A DNA stretch of 64,000 nucleotides from Lacipirellulaceae bacterium. GTDB taxonomy: Bacteria > Planctomycetota > Planctomycetia > Pirellulales > Lacipirellulaceae. Made by a program: the position numbers and the translations under genes. Location: NCBI GenBank assembly GCA_965249435.1, contig CBDFMC010000024.1, positions 134,588-198,587 of the forward strand, in the 5' to 3' direction. Under the pieces are notes generated by a model. That model was not told the DNA's origin. It ran no database searches and saw only the letters and a program-made list of their open reading frames with translations. Below, piece after piece: positions 13,946 through 63,810 of this stretch (the first letter of the stretch is position 1; each line of letters opens with the position of its first letter).

Positions 13946-15537
13946 CTGAGTATTACCCACATCTTTTATAGTCACGAATGGCTCGGATTGCCAAATGAAG
14001 TTTTTCGAATCCTCTCCAAAGCGTCATCCAACCTGGTTCTCCATCGCTTTTGCGCAACAGGTGGCCTCCCAGCCCAGCCAGTTCACGGTAAAAGTCTCTC
14101 ACGGTCTCAATGCTCCGTCCGCCGCGCATACGACGCAACACCGTGACCCAATGGTTCGGTACTACGTCCTCCGCTGGCCGCTCAGGGGTTTCCCGAGCGG
14201 CACTCCGCAACTGCAACAAGCGAACCGCCGCTACACTCAACAACGCGGTGATCGCTTCCAATCGCTCGCTGGTTTCGTATTGGCGTTCTTCCACGCGGCA
14301 GCCCGTCTTGAGCGCCTTGTGAAACTCTTCCACAATCGGCCGTTTCTCATAGTACTCGATCACGGTCCAGGCCTGAGTGAAGCTTGTCACTGGCAGAGAC
14401 GTCAACAGCACCCAGCGCAACGGTTGGACCCCTTTGGGAGCATTCACTTCTCGCACCTCAACGACGTTCATTCCGAGCAACGTGATGCCCAGCTCGCGCA
14501 GCCATGGGCTGCGTTGCCGAGGAGCCGGCATCATCACTGTGCCAAAACGAACTTCGATCTTCGCCGTGCGTTTCCCATACTTCGTACTGCGGTACGACAG
14601 TTGATAGGTACCGGCAAGCGGCAGCGTGCCAAGGTATTCGTCCAGCGACGTTTCCTGCTCTTGATGCACGATTTTTCGGGTCAAATGCTGTGCTCGAACG
14701 ATCCAGTCATGTTGGTTTTGCAGGCATCGACAGTAGACTTCAAAGTTGTCCGCGCCACGGTCGCAGAGATCGATAAACTGAGCCTCTTGGGGAGGTGGGC
14801 CGATTTGATCAATCAACTCTCCCCAGACAAGCGATTCCCGGTTTCGTGCGAGCCGACAACTGCGAGGTTCTTTTTTCGGCACCTGCGTTCGATAACGGAC
14901 CTTTTGTCCTGCCATCCCGACAACTTCCTCTGTCTCGGGGTTGATCATCAATCCCGAATGCAAAAGAAAACCACGACCCAGGCCGCTGCCCACAGGTCTC
15001 AAGCCGATGGCTTGATTGGTCACGCCAAAGTCGATGTGAGTTGTGTCGCAGGAAATCAACCAAATGCCCTTTCCTCGCTGGCGAGTCTGCTGCCAGTGAG
15101 GGACAGCAATCGCATCAAAAGTTACATCGTCATTGTCGATCAAACGATAGGCGGCTTTAAGATCGGACCACTTCTCGGTTTGCCCAGGGGTCGCTGCATC
15201 AGGATCCCCGGCAACTTGAGCGGCAAATTTCACCAACCGCCGAGTACGCCGCACATCCCCCAATGGACACAAACTGAATTGTTGTTGAGCCCATTTTTCC
15301 GTGTCCAGTACTAATGCCATAATGCACCTCCATGCCGTCGTGCTGGACTTTCGCATTCCATGGCCGCCAGCCCCAGGCGACCGAAACCAACCCTGGTCGC
15401 CTCTCCATCCTTTCCTACGCACAAAACACGTCATGGGAAGAAATAGCAACAACTTGGTTACTCGAATAGACTTAGCTATGCTGTCAATGCAATGCTATCA
15501 AGAAACAAACAACCACAAACTTGTGGGTAATACTCAG
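13946..15537 (-). mobile_element. IS4-family, IS50/Tn5-like insertion sequence (about 1.59 kb) with a 9 bp target site duplication
   Basis: The terminal repeats are 19 bp and IS50-like. The left end is CTGAGTATTACCCACATCT, which has the pattern of the IS50 inside end. The right-end reverse complement is CTGAGTATTACCCACAAGT, which has the pattern of the IS50 outside end CTGACTCTTATACACAAGT. Both ends are flanked by the direct repeat GCGCTAGCC (13937-13945 and 15539-15547). The transposase CDS is about 13953-15320; it carries LGD.RRT.RLV and the Tn5-like EEFHKALKTGCRVEERQ motif. Confidence 0.85.
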
Positions 15538-53514: not shown

Positions 53515-54900
53515 CTACGGCAACGCAGCCATTCGCAGGGCTGCCAGATAAGGCACCGGTTCGCTACCTAGCGCATTGAGCACCGTGCCGCCGGCGGTAA
53601 AGACATGGGTAACCCAGTCAGCCTGCCCATACTTTTCCAGTGCTTTGCCCCCTTCGCCACCGCCAACGTAGACTTCTACACCCGAGTTCTTCATTCGTTT
53701 TAGCTGAGGAATAAACTGGCGCGTGCCCGATTCAAATCGTGGGTCTTCAAACATGCCAAACACACCGTTGTGAAAGGCGACGGCACCCGCGGGATGACTG
53801 GCAAGAAACTCACCGACCTTTTCCTCGAATAGCTTACTTGTCTTGGGGCCAATATCAAACTGCTGATCGGTTGGCTGCAACTGGTCTACAGCCGACCCAT
53901 CTTCGATCACCGAATCGATGGGAATCACAAATTCAATCCCCTTCTGCCGGCCATCACAAATCATTTGCTTGGCCTGTTCGATCCGATCGTGCGGGATGAA
54001 ATAGGGCTTACTGGCGTGCTCGGGATCTTCGGCTGCTCCAAGACAACATTCCTGGCCATCGAGTTGGGCAACCCCTTTTTTCAACGCCATGGCAAGCGAC
54101 CCGGCCGCGAAAACCGTGCGGATGGTTCCTCGGCCAATCATTGCCTCCAAATCATCGAGTTTGTCGATCTTCAGTCCGCTGAAAATTACCAACTTGGTTT
54201 CCAGGCAACGTCGCATCGGCCCGTCAAATTCGCTGGCCACGTAGGTGCCCAGCGCGACTCGCGGCATGGCTGCTGGCACGACCGTGCTCGATGCATCCAT
54301 GCTGCCGGCCGAAAGTGCTTCGTTCACGTAGACCGACGCTACCTTTTCTGCAAATTCATTGGCCAGCTTGGTCAGCGGCTTACTAAGCTTTGCGGCATCC
54401 TCGGGCCGTGCCTTCCACAACATGCGTTCCACGGCATAACGACGTGTGTTTTCCAGCATCAATACTGAGCCAGGTTCTGCTCCCGCAATCTGCTCGCAAA
54501 CCGTATTGGGGATCGTTACGGTTTGTTCATCCAACCAATCGGTGATTAGTGGAACTTCGCACTGGAGCAACTCGCCCAATCGGGCAGCCACTTTGACGAG
54601 CGAACCTTCTGGCTTACGGCCGATGTGGCCGAAGAGGATCATTTTCCAACCCCGCTGCCGGCCAAATTCCAAGGTCTCGGTCATCGAACGCAACCGGATG
54701 TCTCCCTGGCCAATGGAATCGCCCGGCTTGGCATCGACATCGCCTCGAATTAACACCGGCGTGCCTGCGGGAAGATCATCCAGCGAATCCAGGCGAGGGA
54801 TCGCTTCGAGATAATCGGCCAACTCAAGCTCTGGTAACGCGGCATGGCCAGCAAGCAGGTTGGCAATCCACTGCTGCATTTGTTCGGTGGTTAGAGTCAT
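53515..54900 (-). CDS. pgk: Phosphoglycerate kinase (with an N-terminal extension of about 50 aa)
   Basis: VLIRGDVDAKP...ILFGHIGRKPEG (N-domain) and YVGGGEGG...FTAGGTVL (C-domain Gly-rich motifs). Confidence 0.75.
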   Translation of the reverse strand: MTLTTEQMQQWIANLLAGHAALPELELADYLEAIPRLDSLDDLPAGTPVLIRGDVDAKPGDSIGQGDIRLRSMTETLEFGRQRGWKMILFGHIGRKPEGSLVKVAARLGELLQCEVPLITDWLDEQTVTIPNTVCEQIAGAEPGSVLMLENTRRYAVERMLWKARPEDAAKLSKPLTKLANEFAEKVASVYVNEALSAGSMDASSTVVPAAMPRVALGTYVASEFDGPMRRCLETKLVIFSGLKIDKLDDLEAMIGRGTIRTVFAAGSLAMALKKGVAQLDGQECCLGAAEDPEHASKPYFIPHDRIEQAKQMICDGRQKGIEFVIPIDSVIEDGSAVDQLQPTDQQFDIGPKTSKLFEEKVGEFLASHPAGAVAFHNGVFGMFEDPRFESGTRQFIPQLKRMKNSGVEVYVGGGEGGKALEKYGQADWVTHVFTAGGTVLNALGSEPVPYLAALRMAALP

Positions 54901-55114
54901 TTCGATTGATCCTTGATTGGCCGACCTCAGTCCCCCGTTAGGTTACTCAAATTTAGACCTCTTCGCCAGAACCGTGAGTAGATATCAGCTTTTTGTAGGC
55001 CGGAACGAGCGGTAGCGCTGTTCCGGCACTCCTATACCTGCAGACTTGGACTATGCCGGAACTCGCGTAGCTCGTTCCGGCCTACGGATGTACTTTTTCA
55101 ACGGGCTGCTGGGC

Positions 55115-55435
55115 CTACGGCTGGATGCAATCGTTGGTGACGAGCCGTGCCGAGTTGGGGTAGTCGGGCGGGACGCCGGGGGCGGTGCCGGGGTCGCCCT
55201 TTTCGATTCGGGCGGCGACGGCGAGGTTCAGGTCGAGAAGTTGCTTGAGCAAATCTTTGCGCGGGGAGAAACCGTACGCCTTCATCACGGCCGCGTCGAG
55301 TGCGGCGTGGGCATCCTTGAGCGGGTTCTTTCCGGGCAGTTCGAGCGTCCGATAGACGGCCCGCAGGCCACCTTTGATTTCGTCCATTTCAGAAAACGCT
55401 ACGCAAAATGAAATTGGACTTCTTCTCTCCACCAA
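55115..55435 (-). pseudogene. C-terminal fragment of an MmeI-family type IIL restriction-modification enzyme
   Basis: LKDAHAALDAAVMKAYGFSPRKDLLKQLLDLNLAVAARIE resembles the conserved C-terminal tail of MmeI-like enzymes (LLKAHQKLDKAVDSVYGF...). It is in a different frame from the ORF that ends at 55446. Confidence 0.5.
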
Positions 55436-55445
55436 TTTGGCCTAC

Positions 55446-55804
55446 TCACGTTGGCGCTTGGGCATGAACGACGTATTCAAACAACTCTTTCTTCGAATTC
55501 CGTTTCCTGATGACTTCCCAGCCGCAGCTTTCAAATCCTACGTCTTCAAAAAGTGCCACATAGATTTCTTCGACGGGCAAGAGTGTGTCGTAAAATTTTG
55601 AGTTGCCTACGATGTAGAAGCACTGTGCGCCTGGTGCAACAACTTTTCGCAGGCTTTGCAAATGAACCTTGACGTCGTCAAAGTACTTGTGAACGTAGCG
55701 GCCTAGGACATCGCGCTCTGCGGAGATCGCTCGAACAAGAGAATCGAATTTGCGATACGCGATTTGACCATTGGTCGGCTGCCACTTGCTTAGGTTGCTT
55801 GTCG
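55446..55804 (-). pseudogene. 3' portion of the DNA methyltransferase coding sequence, displaced by the IS66 insertion
   Basis: Reading the minus strand from 55804 down continues the frame of the methyltransferase ORF exactly (...GGTWGCATS | NLSKWQRTNGQIAYRKF...) once the IS66 element and its 8 bp duplication are removed. It ends at the stop at 55446. Confidence 0.65.
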
Positions 55805-58543
55805 GTTAGCGCTCTGTGAACTCCGTCATGCCAGGAGCGTAATTCAGATCTTGACAAGCCGACGTCGTGAAGCACGCCTCTGGCGGCGGCGCTGGTTGGC
55901 CTGATCAAGTTCGCGCTGGCGATCTTCGCTGCGATGCTCAGGGTGTGCCTTGAGCCATCGGTCAGGTAGCAGCTCGGAGAGCTGTTCACGCTGGTCCCTT
56001 GAAAGCGATTCGAACGGGGTTTGGGCGTCGCCCACCCGCAAGTACTCGGGAACGATCTGAGGAAGCCGGACGAGAACATCGTTGAGATACGGGGTGACGT
56101 GGACATGATTAGAACGAGCACTCTGGATAAGCGTGTACCAGACGCATGCCGCGCGACCACCCGCATCGCTCCCAAAAAATTGGTAATTTTTTCTTCCAAT
56201 AACCGAGGGGCGAATGACTCTTTCTGCCATGTTGTTATCGATCGCATAGCGCCCGTCGGTTGCAAATCGCGTCATCGCGTTCCAACGATTGAGCAGGTAG
56301 CCGATCGCTTCGGCCAACTTGGTCGAAGGCCGTACCGTCGGCTGCACTTCGGTGAGACGATCGTGCAGAAGGGCAAGAATGGGAACCGACTCGCGCATGC
56401 GCACTTGTCGTCGCGTTTCCACATCGGTATCGGCCAGGCGATCCTCGATGTCGTACAGTTGCCAGATCCAAGCGAGCGCCTCGTGCGCAAGTGGCTGCGT
56501 TGAGACGGCGCACGCTTCGTCGAACTTCCGCCGCGCATGGGCCCAACAACCCAGATCCAGAAGTCGGCCATCCGATTCCTTGACTAGGGACGTGTAGACA
56601 CTGTAACCGTCGGTTAATAATCCGCCTTGAAAATCATCAAGTATTTCCCGCGGACCTGCGCGGGATCGATCAAGTCGATAGTCAAATAGTTGGTACGGAT
56701 GCTGGTCATCGCCAACGTAGACCCAGAGATAAACCAGCTTGGTCGCCCCAGCCCCGGGACGCAGGACACGGGCCGTGGTCTCGTCGGCCCGTACATAAAA
56801 ACTATCCAGTACTTGGGTGCGAATCAGATCCCACACCGGCAGCAGACGCTCGCCCGTTCGCACCACGGCGTTGCTCAACACGCTGCGGTTGAACCACATC
56901 GTGGTGGTGGAACGAAGCTCTTCCTGGAGACGATACAGGGGCAGGTGACGCTCGAACTTGGCGTGTGCCAGCCAGGCTAACGTGCTGGCCCCAAATATCC
57001 CTTTTTCGTTGATATTGGGTGGCTTTTCGCTGGTGACGATCTGCTGGCCATCCCGGCTAACAGGGCAACCGTAGGTAAACCGAACGTGCTCGGCGATGTA
57101 GGCGCTAGACTCAACATATTCTAGTTGCCGTGAGATCTGCTCGGAGATCACCGTCCGCTTGCCGCCACATCCACAAGGACAATCGAGTTCTTCCGGCGGC
57201 AGTGGGTGTTCAAAACGCTGGACCGGCAAGCACTCGGGGAATTCAAAACGTTTGCGCTTCTTACGGCGTTTCTTGCGTTTCGAAGACGATTCATCGTCTG
57301 GCTCTTCTTCGTCGGTCGCCTCGTCATCCTCGCTAATCTCGTTGCCCTCGATCGACTCGGGATCAAAAAGAAGCTTTTGATCGGGAGAAGGGATAAACCG
57401 TTCACGCCGTGGAGAAAAGAGTGCCTTACGGAGTAAGGTGATTTGCTCTTGCATCACCTCGATGTGATTCTGCAACGATTCAAGAGTTGCCTGTTGCTCG
57501 CTATTAACCCTTTTGAGATGTGCGATCTCGGCGCGCTGCACTTCGATCTCTTTTCGGAGTTTGTCGGATTCCATCGACAACGTTTCGGTCCTTGAAGGTG
57601 CGTCACGAAATGGCAAATGATCACACACCGTTGGTGTAGAACACACATGTTTATTTATCGACAATTCACGTTGCGCGTCAAGGTGGTTTCCAAGGCGATT
57701 GAGTAATTTGTTTTGCCTGCTCACGACGCCACCACTTGCGACGTTTGACACTCGATAGCTCGATGCCTTCCAGCAACAATCGCAGGTCGTCCACATGCAG
57801 TGTCAAGTAATCACCGGGGGATGCAATCGCCCCTCCATGGTCGGCGCCACGTAGTGTCTCGGACGTTCCTCGTTCAAGATGCTTGTAGAGGATGATCGTG
57901 CCGTCACCCGTGAAATAGAGTACCTTCAACCGGTTGCGGCGTCGGTTGAAAAACAAGAAAAGATCTCCGTCTTCAATCTGTTTGCCAAGCTCCTTTTCGA
58001 CGATACCGATTAATCCACAAAAACTTTTACGCATGTCCGTGGGAGCCAACGCGGCGAAGACTTTTATTTGGGATGGCACAATCAACATGACGCCACCTCA
58101 CGCAACGCCTGCAATACGTCCTTCACTGTCTCACAATCGGTGCCGTGAGGCACATCCACAAAGACTCCCTGCTGCGGCAAGTGAATACGCAGCGTGGACG
58201 CAGGTGTCGTCCCCTCGATCCGCACAGGCACCAGTTGGGTGCCCTGGACGGCGTTACGACTGGTTTTAAGAGACTTGGTCGAACGGCTCCCCTGCTCTGG
58301 GGAGGCTTGCTGCTCACGGAACTTACGCTGCCAGGCATAATAGCTGGTTTGTGTAATCGAGTTCTGGTGGCAAAACGCCGCGATGCTCAAGCCGCTTGAG
58401 GACTGCTGTTTCAGTAGGCCACGCCAGTGGGACTCTTGGGATTTGTTTCGATTGGTCATTGTGCTCGTTCCTGGAATAAAGGGAATGGTTCACCTCTATT
58501 AGGATAGCGCGCAATTTTGGGACGCTGTTCACAGAACGCTTAC
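55805..58543 (-). mobile_element. IS66-family insertion sequence (about 2.74 kb) with an 8 bp target site duplication GCTTGTCG
   Basis: Terminal inverted repeats GTTAGCGCTCTGTGAAC (55806-55822) and GTTCACAGAACGCTTAC (58527-58543). The direct repeat GCTTGTCG lies at 55797-55804 and 58544-58551. It carries three ORFs: tnpC 55844-57796 (650 aa, CPCGCGG zinc-finger plus DDE), tnpB 57678-58088 (136 aa, IS66 Orf2-like), and tnpA 58082-58459 (125 aa, IS66 Orf1-like). Confidence 0.85.
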
Positions 58544-59491
58544 GCTTGTCGCGCAGCCCCAAGTCCCACCAATTGCCTGCCAGTCCATTTCGCCCGCCTG
58601 TCGTCCATCGGAGAGAAAACCCAACCAGTACATATAGGGTCGCAGTTCACGGATGTAGCTCATTCGGTTGGGGTAGGGCGGGGAAGTGATGACCTTCGTA
58701 TACTTGTGATCTTTCGGAAGCGACCTGTCAAGATTGCGAGAATCACCCAGGAACACTTTGCCATCCACATTTGGAGCATCGGCCACGACACTTGCCGCGA
58801 TTTCATCGACGGCCTCGTGGAATTGACGGAAAACGTCATTCTTGCGATCTCTGGCTTTTTCCGCGTCGAATAATAACCGCTGCTTGCTCGGCGGCTTCGA
58901 CTTTTTGAACGACATAGATTGATGACCAAAGCTGGCGTTCGATGTCGCAATCATCACCTTGCAAAACGCGACTTGTAGTAAATCTCGAATGTCATCGCTC
59001 GCCGTCGATTTCCGGATGCCATCAAATAAGTGTGACAAGGCCGATAGAGTTTCCTGATCCCACCATTTTTCTATCTGGTGCAGGTTGGGAGTCCACGTCG
59101 CATCCCAATTCCGCCGCCGCCGCAGATTGCCGAGAATTCGTCGTGCTTCTTCTTGGAACTGGATGTCGAATCCGTCAGAAAAGCGAGTGAGTTTCAAGTT
59201 TCCCAACCAGACCAGAAATGGGTTGATATCGACCGAGTGCGCGGTAACGCCTTGGATGGTGCTTGCCAGCGGTGTGGTTGCGGTACCGGAAAACGGGTCT
59301 AAGGCAAGTTCATCTGGCGCAGCTTGTTGGAGAATTTCGTTCACAACGTGCAGGGAATACGCGGGCGTTAGACGTAGCCAGCCATGCCGCCCTGTCTTGA
59401 CATTGCCCCGAAACGTCAGATGAGCCCGTTGACGTTTGTGTCTGCCGGATTGTTCATCTGCTCGCAGTTGCCCGATCACTGGTTGATTCAT
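58529..59491 (-). CDS. N6/N4 DNA methyltransferase domain; motif X/I then motif IV order (gamma-like). The 3' end is replaced by IS66 sequence.
   Basis: WLRLTPAYSLHVVNEIL...LDPFSGTATT (motif X and motif I) and VITSPPYPN (motif IV). The last 4 codons and the stop come from the IS66 terminal repeat. This may be the methyltransferase domain of the MmeI-like gene. Confidence 0.7.
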   Translation of the reverse strand: MNQPVIGQLRADEQSGRHKRQRAHLTFRGNVKTGRHGWLRLTPAYSLHVVNEILQQAAPDELALDPFSGTATTPLASTIQGVTAHSVDINPFLVWLGNLKLTRFSDGFDIQFQEEARRILGNLRRRRNWDATWTPNLHQIEKWWDQETLSALSHLFDGIRKSTASDDIRDLLQVAFCKVMIATSNASFGHQSMSFKKSKPPSKQRLLFDAEKARDRKNDVFRQFHEAVDEIAASVVADAPNVDGKVFLGDSRNLDRSLPKDHKYTKVITSPPYPNRMSYIRELRPYMYWLGFLSDGRQAGEMDWQAIGGTWGCATSVSVL

Positions 59492-60081
59492 TGCAGCAGA
59501 GCCTCCGTGATCGACTCGATTTTCTCTCGGATGCGGTCGGAATTGCGTTCGAAGAATCCCGCCAAGTCGTAACCCAATACTTCACGGCTGAAAGCGTAAG
59601 TGGACACCAGCGACGATCCCTTGAGCATTCCCGTCAACATGACCCATTGAGCGCGCGTGTACCGTTCGGCGATGTCGTCGTCGATCTGACTCGACAGTAG
59701 CACAATGACAGGAAGGTACGAGTTGGCGTAAGCGTTCGCCGCGTTACCGATGTCAGCGTTTTGCCGTTTTGCATCTTTGCTTTTGTAGCCTTGTCGAATC
59801 TCAAAGACCGAACCCTGTAACGAGTGGATGACTGGCTTCGCCACGTGGACCGAAGCAGCGGCATCATGGAGCCACTGTCGAACGTGATCGGCCTTCTTCG
59901 CGTTGGAGATGTCGCCGAGCGAAATCCGTCCATCCAGGGAGAGCGTTCGCTGCCGTCCACTGGGAGCAGGCACCATGTAAGACCATTTCGCCTGCTCGTC
60001 ATTCAAGCCAAGCGTGTCTTGCAGAATCTGACGAAACAGCCTTTCGCATGAGATGCCGATCTGGCGATAAATTGACGTCAT
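59488..60081 (-). CDS. Hypothetical protein. Either the helical-linker part of a frameshifted MmeI-like gene or a separate restriction-endonuclease candidate.
   Basis: 197 aa ORF that overlaps the methyltransferase start by 4 bp. No recognised motif. Its frame differs from both neighbouring fragments. Confidence 0.35.
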   Translation of the reverse strand: MTSIYRQIGISCERLFRQILQDTLGLNDEQAKWSYMVPAPSGRQRTLSLDGRISLGDISNAKKADHVRQWLHDAAASVHVAKPVIHSLQGSVFEIRQGYKSKDAKRQNADIGNAANAYANSYLPVIVLLSSQIDDDIAERYTRAQWVMLTGMLKGSSLVSTYAFSREVLGYDLAGFFERNSDRIREKIESITEALLQ

Positions 60082-60319
60082 TTCCTCCGGCCGCTTTGTG
60101 CGCAGCGTAGATCAACGGAGAATCGAGCCCAAACCACGTGTAAAACGGGTCACTCTGATAGAGCGATTGGAATTCATCAAATGTCAGCCCCGCCTTGGCA
60201 CGTTTTCCAAACTTGGGCTTATAGTTACGACAAATCGATAGTGCGTTATCGATGATTGCAAAATATCGATCGTCTTGCTTTGCTTTCTTGGCCATTGATA
60301 ATGGGAATCCATAGTACAT
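59999..60319 (-). pseudogene. Fragment in the same frame as the MmeI-like nuclease domain, separated from it by an in-frame TAG
   Basis: It is in frame with 60368-60961. The only intervening stop is the TAG at 60368-60370. Confidence 0.4.
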
Positions 60320-60367
60320 GCAACTGACGGAGAATCCGTTTCTCCAGGCAGTTTACCATGGAGCACG

Positions 60368-60961
60368 CTATCTGAATAGTGCTGCGAGGTCGCGCGGGAT
60401 GCGGCGCGTAATGAGCTTGTTGAAGCAGGTCGCGAGCCGGTCGGCCGCTTCGCGTGTGACCTTTTCATGGTCGTTGCCGAAGATGGGCGTTTCGCCGGTT
60501 GGGAAAAGAAACGCGAGCGGGGCGTGTCGCGTTGGCAGGTCGACGAGCGGGACCTTGTCGACCGGCTCGTCCATCTGGACATTGAAGTCGTACACCCAGA
60601 ATTCGTCGAAATTGCAGAGAATGGTGTACTGCGGACGATCTGGCACAAGCCGCGTCCAGTAGTCGAACGCCTGGCGGTAGTGCTTGGCAAGGTTTGCTCC
60701 TCGCTTCTTCATTTCGATCAGTACAACCGGCTTCCAAACGTAGTCGGCGAACGCCGTCCCGCCGCCATCTTCGGTCGACTTTCGGATACGAAACTCGGGC
60801 GTGCCGCCGACTTCCAAGCAGCCCTTTTGTCCGAATGCCTGAAAAAGGCGGTCGAGGTAGATTTGGGCTTGCCCCTTTTCATCCCCGGTGACATGTTCTC
60901 CTACCCAGGCGACAAAGGCAATCAGGCGTTCTTCTCGTACATCCATGAACAAAGTATGCAC
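60368..60961 (-). pseudogene. MmeI-family N-terminal PD-(D/E)XK endonuclease domain (standalone 197 aa ORF that ends at an amber codon)
   Basis: FADYVWKPVVLIEMKKRGANLAKHYRQAFDYWTRLVPDRPQYTILCNFDEFWVYDF aligns with the MmeI region FVDLFWPGILLIEMKSRGKDLDKAYDQALDYF...RYVLVCDFQRF, including the D...EXK catalytic residues. Confidence 0.6.
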
Positions 60962-61190: not shown

Positions 61191-62042
61191 CTACCCGGCC
61201 TTGCGTTTCGTCTGTTGAGCAGTTGGCGCATCGTCGGTCCGATGCAGTCGGATGGCGGCTTTCGGCGGCCGGCGTCGTTCTTGGGCAAAGCCTCGTTTGC
61301 CCTGGCGAAAATAGGGAGCAAAAACCGCAGCGGGACCTGTGGAATAGGCGTCGTCCAACGCAGCCACGGTTTCATCGAATGACAATCCTTGCCGGTAGAT
61401 CAACCGATAAGCGGCCTTGAGCTCGGCCACTTCCTCGCGCGAGTATCCGGCCCGTCGCAGGCCGACACGGTTGAGACCGACGATCATGGCGGTATCGGCG
61501 TCGGTCAGCATAAAAGGTGGCACATCTTGGGTCACTTTGGCACGGGCAGCGACCATCGCCAATCGGCCTACGCGACAAAACTGATGCACCGCGACTGCAC
61601 CGCCCAGGCAGGCTTGATCTTGGATCTCGACATGCCCGCCCAAGAGGATGTTGTTTGTGAGAATCACTTGGTTGCCCACCAGGCAATCGTGGGCCACGTG
61701 GGCGCCGATCATCAGCAGACAATCATCCCCAATGCGGGTGACATCTCCTTCGTGTAGGGCACGGTTGACGGTTGCCTGTTCACGAATCATGTTCCGCTGA
61801 CCGATTTGCAGCTTCCCCGACTTCTTCGGCAGATTGGTATGCTGAGGCAGCCCACCCAACACAGCGCCCTCCAGAATGGTCGTCCCACTGCCAATGGTGG
61901 TCCCCTGTTTCACAACCACATGGGCCGCCAGCCGGCAACCGGCACCTAGGACAACATCCGATTCGATAATCGCGTAAGGGCCAATTTCGATGTCGTCGGC
62001 CAGTTGGGCTGCGGAGCTGACAATGGCAGAAGGATGAATCAT
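61191..62042 (-). CDS. lpxA: Acyl-ACP--UDP-N-acetylglucosamine O-acyltransferase
   Basis: MIHPSAIV...IGPYAII...hexapeptide repeats...HVAHDC..G...IL.NN..LGGHV...HQF..VG...V.QDVPPF, and the C-terminal helical domain. The start is taken at MIHPSAI (about 62040-62042). Confidence 0.85.
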   Translation of the reverse strand: MIHPSAIVSSAAQLADDIEIGPYAIIESDVVLGAGCRLAAHVVVKQGTTIGSGTTILEGAVLGGLPQHTNLPKKSGKLQIGQRNMIREQATVNRALHEGDVTRIGDDCLLMIGAHVAHDCLVGNQVILTNNILLGGHVEIQDQACLGGAVAVHQFCRVGRLAMVAARAKVTQDVPPFMLTDADTAMIVGLNRVGLRRAGYSREEVAELKAAYRLIYRQGLSFDETVAALDDAYSTGPAAVFAPYFRQGKRGFAQERRRPPKAAIRLHRTDDAPTAQQTKRKAG

Positions 62043-62332
62043 CACTGGTTGGGTCCTCGGCGAGGCAGAGCAATGCGGCAAGAGGCAGGCAAGAGAGCTG
62101 TGGCGCCCTTGCCCACGAGGGTGGCGCCGGCGGGGGGGCGTGCCACTACGGGTGTTATCGGCTCTAGGGCTTGTAGCGGATTAACGGAATGCGGAATACG
62201 GAACAGCCGTGCCGCAACGCGGCACACGGCAAGGAATGCGGGATGAGGGATTCCAGACCTTGGGTTTCCGTGCTAGACTGCCCTCCTCGAATGCTAGCAC
62301 TCAATAAACGAGGGTGTTCGGGAATTACGAAT

Positions 62333-62413
62333 GAAAGCCCTCGGCTTTGCCGGGGGGTTGCCGAGAATTCGAGTCTACACTGCTACCACCCCCCGGCAAA
62401 GCCGGGGGCTTCC
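62333..62413. repeat. Family A repeat, tight inverted pair with conserved spacer (the same unit as 5174-5253)
   Basis: GAAAGCCCTCGGCTTTGCCGGGGGGTTGCCGAGAATTCGAGTCTACACTGCTACCACCCCCCGGCAAAGCCGGGGGCTTCCA. Confidence 0.85.
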
Positions 62414-62462
62414 ATGGAAACAATTCCCAGACACCCTCAATTAAACTGGAGATCTTCCGGCT

Positions 62463-63674: not shown

Positions 63675-63810
63675 AATTTCAGCCCCCGGCTTTGCCGGGG
63701 GGTTGCGGAACGATCACCGTCTCTACCAAGCATGGCTTTTCCCTGAGAGCATTTTCCCAAAAGCAACAATTTCCCGAAGGCAACCCCCCGGCAAAGCCGG
63801 GGGCTGAAAT
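63675..63810. repeat. Family A composite repeat, inverted pair with a ~72 bp spacer (the same arrangement as 3499-3635)
   Basis: Reverse core at 63675-63706 and forward core at 63779-63810. The spacer shares CCAMCAAGCAGAGCATTTCC-like sequence with the other loci. The companion motif AGCCACTCAATTCCCTGAAGAACC follows at 63843-63866. Confidence 0.85.

What the first reader, a model, noticed from the sequence alone, without database searches (positions are those of the whole stretch)
55115..60961. Decayed MmeI-family (type IIL) restriction-modification locus: an amber stop, several frame changes, and an IS66 insertion with a clean 8 bp target duplication inside the methyltransferase region
The minus strand from 60961 down to 55115 reads as an MmeI-like nuclease domain with the D...EXK motif, then linker ORFs in alternating frames, then a gamma-like methyltransferase domain (motif I DPFSGTATT, motif IV SPPY), then a C-terminal MmeI-like tail. 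With the 2738 bp IS66 removed, the total is about 1000 aa, which fits one MmeI-family gene. The methyltransferase ORF is cut by IS66 at 55805-58543. The terminal repeats are GTWAGCGYTCTGTGAAC and the direct repeat is GCTTGTCG. The coding frame resumes exactly across the duplication (...GCATS|NLSKWQ...). An in-frame TAG sits at 60368-60370. There are at least three frame switches, near 60000-60080, 59490 and 55440. Together this looks like a recently inactivated defence gene that is being eroded. An alternative reading is a small R-M pair (R 59488-60081, M 58529-59491) nested between two MmeI-like remnants.
Basis: partly seen in the sequence, partly recalled or inferred. Interest (0 to 1): 0.6.

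Follow-up and report, generated by a model that had tools for sequence, protein, structure and literature searches.

The report
Dead restriction-modification genes nested in another
This is not one eroded MmeI-type gene: a separate two-gene restriction-modification cassette replaced the middle of an MmeI-type gene and was itself later killed by a frameshift and an IS66 insertion, and related genomes show different cassettes nested in the same gene family.

Summary

- **MmeI remnants.** 60961-60371 (minus strand) encodes only the N-terminal nuclease domain of an MmeI-family (type IIL/IIG) enzyme. 55390-55118 encodes only its last ~90 residues. About 690 residues in between (helical spacer, methyltransferase, TRD) are missing.
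- **The cassette.** Their place is taken by a compact 2.18-kb type II R-M cassette (60367-55439). It has a 268-aa PD-(D/E)XK restriction enzyme gene and a 432-aa methyltransferase gene that overlap by ATGA. The same pair is linked in 152 of 152 loci examined, across many phyla.
- **Lesions.** R carries a 1-nt insertion at about 60082. M is split by a 2739-bp IS66-family element (55805-58543) with an 8-bp GCTTGTCG duplication.
The "amber stop" lies in the junction zone. Two of the three "frame switches" are ordinary gene boundaries.

All three defence genes are dead, so the locus itself is ordinary decay.

The unexpected part is recurrence. Four other loci carry type II R-M genes nested between N- and C-terminal remnants of the same MmeI subfamily, with different junctions. 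Counting the window, that is four cassette families. No mechanism is known.

The parts
60371..60961 (-). N-terminal remnant of an MmeI-family (type IIL/IIG) gene. It holds only the nuclease domain (197 codons from GTG 60961; the source annotation starts at ATG 60946). It corresponds to residues 10-191 of an intact 970-aa relative. The ORF ends at TAG 60370-60368.
   Evidence: Pfam MmeI_N 1.5e-21. PADLOC PDLC03599 positions 1-186/959, 5.6e-75. tblastn against the intact Nitrogeniibacter plasmid protein. E83-M84-K85 are invariant and D73 nearly so in alignment A3.
60367..60396 (-). Upstream junction zone between the MmeI_N remnant and the cassette. MmeI amino-acid homology fades at ...PRDLA. DNA homology to the cassette in L001 starts at 60367 (CGTGCTCCATG...). 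The 28 nt from 60395 to 60368, including the TAG, are shared only with L007.
59488..60295 (-). R gene of the nested cassette. It encodes a 268-aa type II restriction endonuclease (PD-(D/E)XK fold) and is inactivated by a 1-nt insertion: GGAGGAAATGACG at 60088-60076, where homologues read GGAGG(G/C)ATGACG. The stop TGA 59490-59488 overlaps the M start.
58552..59491 (-). M gene, 5' part (codons 1-313 plus one base), upstream of the upstream copy of the target duplication (58544-58551). Motif I DPFSGTATT is at aa 64-72 and motif IV SPPY at aa 270-273.
   Evidence: PADLOC MTase_II PDLC03306 2.4e-24 over residues 23-419. No hit to MmeI_Mtase.
55805..58543 (-). IS66-family insertion sequence, 2739 bp. 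tnpA is 58459-58082 and tnpB is 58088-57678. tnpC is 57796-55844 as the maximal ORF, with a likely start at ATG 57574. It has 17-bp terminal inverted repeats.
   Evidence: Pfam HTH_Tnp_1, TnpB_IS66 and DDE_Tnp_IS66 (2.8e-83). Inverted repeats.
55797..55804 (.). 8-bp target-site duplication GCTTGTCG. The second copy is at 58544-58551.
55446..55804 (-). M gene, 3' part (from within codon 314 to codon 432, plus the stop TGA 55448-55446). It is in frame with the 5' part once the IS and one repeat copy are removed.
   Evidence: The reconstructed 432-aa protein is 84% identical to the L001 protein and 78% to the L002 protein over its full length.
55391..55445 (-). Downstream junction. Cassette homology to L001 ends at 55439, 7 nt after the M stop. 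About 50 nt of AT-rich filler of unknown origin follow.
55115..55390 (-). C-terminal remnant of the same MmeI-family gene (EMDEIKGGLRAVYRTLELPGKNPLKDAHAALD...), equal to residues 881-968 of the intact relative. The stop is TAG 55117-55115.
   Evidence: Pfam MmeI_C 0.005. PADLOC PDLC03599 positions 869-957/959, 9.1e-21. tblastn.

Best explanation
The locus is a three-layer graveyard of defence genes between pgk (53515-54900) and lpxA (61191-62081), in an otherwise housekeeping stretch of chromosome.

**Layer 1.** An MmeI-family single-polypeptide restriction-modification gene of about 970 codons once sat here.

**Layer 2.** A compact orthodox type II R-M cassette replaced about 690 codons of it: the helical spacer, the gamma-class methyltransferase and the TRD. 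The cassette has a ~70-bp leader, a 268-aa PD-(D/E)XK endonuclease gene and a 432-aa methyltransferase gene translationally coupled through ATGA. It lies in the same orientation as the MmeI gene. Only the nuclease-domain coding part and the last ~90 codons of the MmeI gene remain. This was a substitution by illegitimate recombination; no target duplication or recombinase is visible.

**Layer 3.** The cassette then died. One extra base shifted the R frame, and an IS66-family element transposed into codon 314 of M, making the usual 8-bp duplication.

**What is shown and what is inferred.**
- Shown: the gene content, the boundaries and the lesions.
- Inferred: R was lost before, or was selected together with, the loss of M. 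A cell with active R and no cognate methylation would cut its own DNA.
- Inferred: all events are recent. Each remnant is still an open frame. R has a single lesion and keeps all 65 family-invariant residues. The IS has perfect repeats and intact ORFs.
For: - **Remnants.** The N and C remnants map to positions 1-186 and 869-957 of one PADLOC IIG profile. They map to residues 10-191 and 881-968 of an intact 970-aa relative.
- **R gene.** The reconstructed R matches more than 4000 stand-alone proteins of 265-280 aa over 97-100% of its length. The three closest R homologues whose contigs were fetched each have a 431-432-aa gene next to R with a 4-bp overlap, in unrelated contexts.
- **Linkage.** M follows R in 83/83 genome loci and 69/69 metagenome loci.
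- **Boundaries.** DNA homology to L001 spans exactly 60367-55439.
- **Frameshift.** One inserted base relative to three homologues.
- **IS66.** Anatomy and target duplication.
- **Selection.** dN/dS of R and M against L001 is about 0.085, so inactivation is recent.
- **Neighbourhood.** The neighbours are housekeeping genes.
Against: - No sister genome with the intact MmeI allele, an empty IS target or an intact cassette at this locus could be found, so the order and mechanism of events are inferred.
- About 50 nt at the downstream junction (55391-55438) and 28 nt at the upstream junction (60368-60395) have no assigned origin.
- The frameshift rests on a single assembly. Read support could not be checked.
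- The N and C remnants have stayed open. That is also what continued function would predict.
Confidence: 0.85

Rival explanations
1. One reading: all fragments are pieces of a single ~1000-aa MmeI-family gene, eroded by an amber stop, several frameshifts and an IS.
For: The ends are true MmeI_N and MmeI_C. The summed length (197+268+432+~90 aa) resembles that of an MmeI enzyme.
Against: - The middle 700 aa are two independent proteins, found as a stand-alone pair in 152/152 loci examined and lacking MmeI flanks in all but one of about 165.
- There is no Pfam MmeI_hel, MmeI_Mtase or MmeI_TRD hit.
- The middle matches the PADLOC REase_II and MTase_II profiles at full length.
- The R stop and M start overlap as ATGA.
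Confidence: 0.02
2. The arrangement is functional or selected rather than debris. The stand-alone MmeI_N nuclease ORF and/or the C-terminal ORF are kept, for example as a promoter and leader for the cassette or as a partner protein. This would make the MmeI_N - R - M - MmeI_C layout a composite system, which in this genome was only recently inactivated.
For: - The same layout recurs with four different cassette families, and R (or, in L170 and L172, the unassigned ORF taken as R) is always co-directional with the remnant.
- All N and C remnants seen are still open frames.
- dN/dS of the N remnants of L014 against L172 is 0.084.
- The cassette leader is only ~40-70 bp.
Against: - Junction positions differ in every locus: N side at reference residues ~189, 191, 203, 222 and 318-355; C side at ~770, 846, 873, 876 and 881.
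- About 165 other cassette loci work without MmeI flanks.
- The low dN/dS can date from before the insertions.
- N-only ORFs were how three of the loci were picked, so ascertainment plays a part.
Confidence: 0.08
3. The nest was not formed in this lineage. It was formed once, long ago, and is shared by descent or by homologous recombination through the MmeI arms with the other window-type nest (L014). Later deletions changed the junctions.
For: L014 carries the same cassette family between MmeI_N and MmeI_C in the same order. Its C-side junctions lie within ~8 codons of the window's (873 against 881).
Against: - The window's cassette is closer to L001 (84% aa, no MmeI flanks) than to L014 (71% for R, 64% for M).
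- The L014 cassette is 78-80% identical in DNA to L010-L013 and L090. None of these shows MmeI flanks, although some contigs have little flanking sequence.
- The L014 MmeI_N is 85-92% identical to other MmeI genes (P0148 continues past the L014 break) but only 73% identical to the window's.
- The N-side junctions differ by more than 125 codons.
Confidence: 0.08
4. The frameshift in R (or the IS in M) is an assembly or consensus error, or a minority variant, so part of the system is still alive.
For: The frameshift lies in a short A run (GGAGGAAATG), a context prone to indel errors. Only one assembly is available.
Against: An active R next to an IS-disrupted M should be lethal. The two lesions therefore make sense together. 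The IS has exact inverted repeats and an exact target duplication, which assembly errors do not produce.
Confidence: 0.05

Closest known systems
MmeI-family type IIL / IIG restriction-modification enzymes (MmeI, NmeAIII; Pfam MmeI_N, MmeI_hel, MmeI_Mtase, MmeI_TRD, MmeI_C)
   Same: The two outer fragments are true members' ends. The N-terminal D...EXK nuclease domain is 62% identical to an intact 970-aa relative on a Nitrogeniibacter plasmid. The C-terminal helical domain is 61% identical.
   Different: The spacer, methyltransferase and TRD are absent (about 690 residues). What lies between the ends is not MmeI sequence.
Orthodox type II R-M systems with a PD-(D/E)XK endonuclease of the PspGI / EcoRII-C / PfoI / AgeI structural group
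   Same: There are separate, translationally coupled R and M genes. R matches a REBASE-derived PADLOC REase_II profile at full length, and its model's best structural match is PspGI. M has SAM motif I and an SPPY motif IV.
   Different: - R has no sequence-detectable relative with a solved structure and no Pfam or NCBIfam family.
- The recognition site is unknown.
- The M motif order is I ... ~200 aa ... IV, unlike the beta-class N6_N4_Mtase it weakly resembles.
- Both genes are inactivated here.
R-M gene complexes inserted into, or substituted for, other R-M genes (Furuta, Abe and Kobayashi 2010, PMC2853133)
   Same: [quoted passage not shown] It also reports allelic substitution of one R-M type by another. 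The present locus is a type II pair inside a type IIG/IIL gene.
   Different: Those insertions came with long target duplications. Here the target core is deleted and nothing is duplicated. The recurrence of four cassette families in one target gene family was not described there.
IS66 family insertion sequences
   Same: Three ORFs (tnpA, tnpB, tnpC with DDE_Tnp_IS66), terminal inverted repeats beginning GTAAGCG, an 8-bp target duplication and a size of ~2.7 kb. The usual features of the family are quoted from my own knowledge of ISfinder descriptions.
   Different: Nothing unusual. Only one copy is present in the window.

Membership tests
MmeI family (type IIL/IIG single-polypeptide R-M enzyme) | N-terminal PD-(D/E)XK nuclease domain (MmeI_N) with D...EXK | tested here: met
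   Pfam PF20464 1.5e-21. PADLOC PDLC03599 positions 1-186. E83-M84-K85 invariant.
MmeI family (type IIL/IIG single-polypeptide R-M enzyme) | Helical spacer plus gamma-class N6-adenine methyltransferase domain (MmeI_hel, MmeI_Mtase) in the same polypeptide | tested here: not met
   No PF20465 or PF20473 hit in any fragment. tblastn with the intact 970-aa relative finds only residues 10-191 and 881-968.
MmeI family (type IIL/IIG single-polypeptide R-M enzyme) | Target recognition domain (MmeI_TRD) | tested here: not met
   No hit.
MmeI family (type IIL/IIG single-polypeptide R-M enzyme) | C-terminal domain (MmeI_C) | tested here: met
   Pfam 0.005, below the curated cut-off. PADLOC PDLC03599 positions 869-957 at 9.1e-21. 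61% identity to the intact relative.
MmeI family (type IIL/IIG single-polypeptide R-M enzyme) | One continuous ORF of ~900-1000 codons | tested here: not met
   The two remnants are separated by a foreign 2.18-kb cassette plus an IS.
Orthodox type II R-M system | Separate restriction endonuclease gene | tested here: met
Orthodox type II R-M system | Adjacent cognate DNA methyltransferase gene, with linkage conserved across genomes | tested here: met
   PADLOC MTase_II 2.4e-24. M follows R in 83/83 and 69/69 loci.
Orthodox type II R-M system | Sequence-specific cleavage blocked by the cognate methylation | not testable with these tools
   This needs enzymology or methylome data from an intact homologue such as the L001 or L002 pair.
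IS66 family | tnpA, tnpB and a tnpC carrying the DDE_Tnp_IS66 domain | tested here: met
   Pfam PF01527, PF05717 and PF03050 (2.8e-83).
IS66 family | Terminal inverted repeats and an 8-bp target-site duplication | tested here: met
   17-nt inverted repeats with 2 mismatches between arms. GCTTGTCG is duplicated.

The most novel reading that the evidence does not exclude
In this (mainly planctomycete) MmeI subfamily, the methyltransferase-TRD core is repeatedly and independently replaced by unrelated compact type II R-M cassettes. The nuclease-domain ORF stays upstream and a C-terminal ORF stays downstream. On this reading the MmeI-type gene acts as a preferred landing pad. Possible reasons are promoter capture, homology arms that let an addictive cassette convert intact alleles, or self-protection gained by knocking out the resident restriction enzyme. 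If so, one class of defence genes would be systematically overwritten by another.

The five nests:

| Locus | Nested genes |
|---|---|
| Window | PDLC03512-type R + 432-aa M |
| L014 | PDLC03512-type R + M, same family as the window |
| L170 | vsr + C5 methyltransferase + HTH ORF read by eye as a C (controller) protein + unassigned 203-aa ORF |
| L172/L173 | unassigned 216-aa ORF + C5 methyltransferase |
| L179/L180 | XhoI-family R + N4/N6 methyltransferase |

The two unassigned ORFs are only presumed to be restriction genes. All junctions differ. Three of the four N-only ORFs that I looked up turned out to be nests.
Probability: 0.3. Interest if true: 0.65.

Novelty: new member of a known kind. 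Interest (0 to 1): 0.4.

Why it matters
For annotation, this locus should not be called an MmeI pseudogene of ~1000 codons. It is two MmeI remnants, one frameshifted type II R gene, one IS-interrupted M gene and one IS66 element.

For biology, it is a clean natural record of defence-gene turnover: a type IIL enzyme overwritten by a type II pair, which was then disarmed in the only safe order, R before M. The 268-aa/432-aa pair is a very widespread and unusually conserved R-M family. It occurs in at least 588 GTDB species and has no Pfam or NCBIfam family, no close relative of known structure and no known specificity.

If the recurrence of R-M cassettes inside MmeI-type genes survives an unbiased survey, it would point to a rule for where new restriction systems land and how they displace resident ones.

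Tried and rejected
- **Fusion reading.** I translated all frames with the IS removed. Only M becomes continuous, and the R halves need a 1-nt correction. Rejected.
- **Family and structure searches.** Pfam and NCBIfam found nothing for R and only sub-threshold N6_N4_Mtase hits for M. PDB sequence search found nothing for R and only weak motif-level hits for M. tblastn of R against plasmids found nothing.
- **Source genome.** Exact look-ups of the window's own proteins (P0010, LpxA) returned no contig, so the genome and its sister strains could not be retrieved. Cluster look-up gave no names.
- **Does the cassette usually sit in defence genes?** Of 142 ORFs flanking it in other genomes, only a handful hit PADLOC families. 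MmeI flanks were found in 1 of ~165 cassette loci. A general preference of this cassette for R-M genes is therefore not supported.
- **L007.** I examined this 91% identical R as a possible orthologous locus. Its CoA-transferase part is absent from the window and only 41 nt lie upstream, so it is inconclusive.
- **Cassette ends.** I looked for terminal repeats or target duplications around the cassette and found none.
- **Other collections.** The viral-contig scan for MmeI_N gave two loci, both intact genes. The literature search found no description of the recurrent pattern.

Full report
**Observation**

On the minus strand between 60961 and 55115 the window has these ORFs:
- 197 aa, 60961-60368
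- two overlapping ORFs in different frames, 60319-59999 and 60081-59488
- 320 aa, 59491-58529
- three IS66-type ORFs
- 71 aa, 55661-55446
- 106 aa, 55435-55115

The IS is exactly delimited. GTTAGCGCTCTGTGAAC starts at 55805, and its imperfect inverted copy GTAAGCGTTCTGTGAAC ends at 58543. GCTTGTCG flanks both ends, at 55797-55804 and 58544-58551. The repeat consensus occurs twice in the window against 0.04 expected by chance. The element is 2739 bp. Pfam recognises tnpA (HTH_Tnp_1), tnpB (TnpB_IS66) and tnpC (DDE_Tnp_IS66, 2.8e-83). Removing the IS and one repeat copy joins the 320-aa and 71-aa ORFs into one 432-aa frame, 59491->55446.

**The ends are MmeI, the middle is not**
- The 197-aa ORF is an MmeI_N domain (Pfam 1.5e-21). 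It aligns to positions 1-186 of a 959-position PADLOC type IIG profile (PDLC03599, 5.6e-75).
- The 106-aa ORF aligns to positions 869-957 of the same profile (9.1e-21).
- An intact 970-aa relative on a Nitrogeniibacter aestuarii plasmid matches the window only over its residues 10-191 and 881-968.
- No fragment hits MmeI_hel, MmeI_Mtase or MmeI_TRD.

**The 'linker ORFs' are one restriction endonuclease gene**

Joining 60295-... and ...-59488 after deleting one base gives a 268-aa protein. It has more than 4000 homologues of 265-280 aa that cover 97-100% of it, and they all read ...AAHKAAGGMTSxYRQIG... straight through the break. DNA alignments to three homologues show that the window has GGAGGAAATGACG where they have GGAGG(G/C)ATGACG. 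That is one extra base, at about 60082.

**The methyltransferase is its partner**

The 432-aa protein matches PADLOC MTase_II profiles over its full length (2.4e-24). Motif I (DPFSGTATT) is near the N-terminus and SPPY lies about 200 residues later. The R stop and the M start overlap (ATGA, 59491-59488).

The same R-then-M pair is found in unrelated contexts. In L001 and L002, where the overlap was read from the gene calls, it is again 4 bp. The M proteins are 84% identical in L001, 78% in L002 and 73% in L008. In scans of species-representative genomes and of metagenomes, M followed R in 83/83 and 69/69 loci with room to judge. The family occurs in at least 588 GTDB species of many phyla at 52-71% identity.

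**Boundaries**

DNA homology between the IS-less window and L001 (79.6% over 2185 bp) runs from 60367 to 55439. It begins at the base after the TAG and ends 7 nt after the stop codon of M.
- The 'amber stop' is therefore not a nonsense mutation inside continuing homology. It lies in the junction zone, at the end of the 28 nt shared only with L007.
- The 'frame switches' near 59490 and 55440 are a gene overlap and a gene end.
- About 50 AT-rich nt (55438-55391) lie between the cassette and the first recognisable MmeI_C codons. Their origin is unknown.

The cassette is 2.18 kb and the missing MmeI core about 2.07 kb. This explains why the summed length looked like one MmeI enzyme.

**Interpretation**

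An MmeI-family gene was overwritten in its centre by a type II R-M cassette. The cassette then lost R to a frameshift and M to IS66. The order 'R first' is inferred from the established self-restriction logic of type II systems. It is not shown.

Recency is inferred from four points:
- the remnant frames are still open;
- R has a single lesion;
- the IS target duplication is perfect;
- dN/dS is about 0.085 for both R and M against L001.

The surrounding genes are housekeeping: pgk, lpxA, lpxD, valS, leuS, ppk, ftsH and others. This is an isolated defence locus, not an island.

**An unexpected recurrence**

Among about 165 loci carrying the cassette family, one other has MmeI flanks: L014, a Planctomycetia MAG. 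Its MmeI ORF runs for 326 codons (1259-2239), followed by the cassette and then MmeI_C.

The L014 nest appears to have arisen independently of the window's:
- The L014 cassette is only 67% identical in DNA to the window's, but 78-80% identical to cassettes that show no MmeI flanks.
- The L014 MmeI_N is 85-92% identical to other MmeI genes, and one of them (P0148) continues past the L014 break point. It is only 73% identical to the window's MmeI_N.

I then looked up four short 'MmeI_N-only' proteins that lie on long contigs.

| Query protein | Locus | What follows MmeI_N |
|---|---|---|
| P0140 | L170 | vsr, C5 methyltransferase, an HTH ORF read by eye as a C (controller) protein, an unassigned 203-aa ORF (presumed R), then MmeI_C |
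| P0141 | L172/L173 | an unassigned 216-aa ORF (presumed R), C5 methyltransferase, then MmeI_C |
| P0186 | L179/L180 | XhoI-family endonuclease, N4/N6 methyltransferase, then a TRD-plus-C remnant |
| P0155 | L171 | no insert; a frameshift-fragmented full-length gene |

Against the intact reference, the junctions differ in every nest. On the N side they fall at residues ~189, 191, 203, 222 and 318-355. On the C side they fall at ~770, 846, 873, 876 and 881. L014 and L172 have 91% identical N remnants. L014 keeps more of the N side and L172 more of the C side, so neither can derive from the other.

Controls and precedent:
- MmeI-like genes on plasmids of cultured bacteria are mostly contiguous.
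- Two relatives on viral contigs and two on plasmids are intact.
- Insertion of R-M complexes into a Type IIG gene, a Type II M gene and a Type III M gene has been reported in H. pylori (PMC2853133). The kind of event is therefore known.
- I found no description of four cassette families recurring in one gene family.

Two cautions apply. My sample is small, and three of the nests were picked because their N ORF was short. So the clustering of N-side junctions near residue 190-220 means nothing. Only the content of the inserts is unbiased.

**Verdict**

The anatomy is solid. As a single locus this is ordinary defence-gene decay built from known families. The recurrent overwriting of MmeI-type genes by type II cassettes is the one thing worth following up.

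Noticed in passing
L014 1259-4560; L170 335-3705; L172 6001-9302 (= L173 2503-5804); L179 6001-9275 (= L180): Four other loci carry type II R-M genes nested between N- and C-terminal remnants of the same MmeI subfamily. With the window this makes four cassette families, and every junction differs. In L170 and L172 the presumed R gene is an ORF with no family assignment.
   Followed up: partly
proteins P0122, P0123, P0124, P0138, P0155 (loci L003, L004-L006, L171): Many close relatives of the MmeI remnant are themselves internal-deletion or frameshift derivatives. None of the best 120 hits to the N+C query is full length, even on contigs longer than 10 kb.
   Followed up: partly
L007 1-1541 (protein P0034): An R gene 91% identical in DNA to the window's and intact at the frameshift site. 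It is cut after about residue 200 and fused in frame to a CoA-transferase III domain. This is either another decay route or a chimeric contig. Its homology to the window reaches 28 nt further upstream (to 60395) than that of L001.
   Followed up: partly
window 62331-62415 and 63676-63810: Copies of a GC-rich palindromic element (arms ACCCCCCGGCAAAGCCGGGGGCT / AGCCCCCGGCTTTGCCGGGGGGT, 23-31 nt). It looks REP- or MITE-like and lies in intergenic DNA.
   Followed up: no
window 54995-55010 and 55070-55085: A perfect 16-nt inverted repeat with a 59-nt loop, just downstream of the stop of the MmeI_C remnant. It may be a terminator or the edge of the old MmeI unit.
   Followed up: no
window 13953-15452 (-): A 499-aa ORF with a Tn5/IS4-type transposase DNA-binding domain (Tnp_DNA_bind). 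It is a second mobile element in an otherwise housekeeping window.
   Followed up: no
loci L010-L169: The 268-aa endonuclease family is unusually conserved for a restriction enzyme: 52-84% identity across Planctomycetota, Verrucomicrobiota, Chloroflexota, Cyanobacteria, Proteobacteria, Acidobacteriota and others. It has no Pfam or NCBIfam family and is labelled 'hypothetical protein' wherever a source names it.
   Followed up: partly
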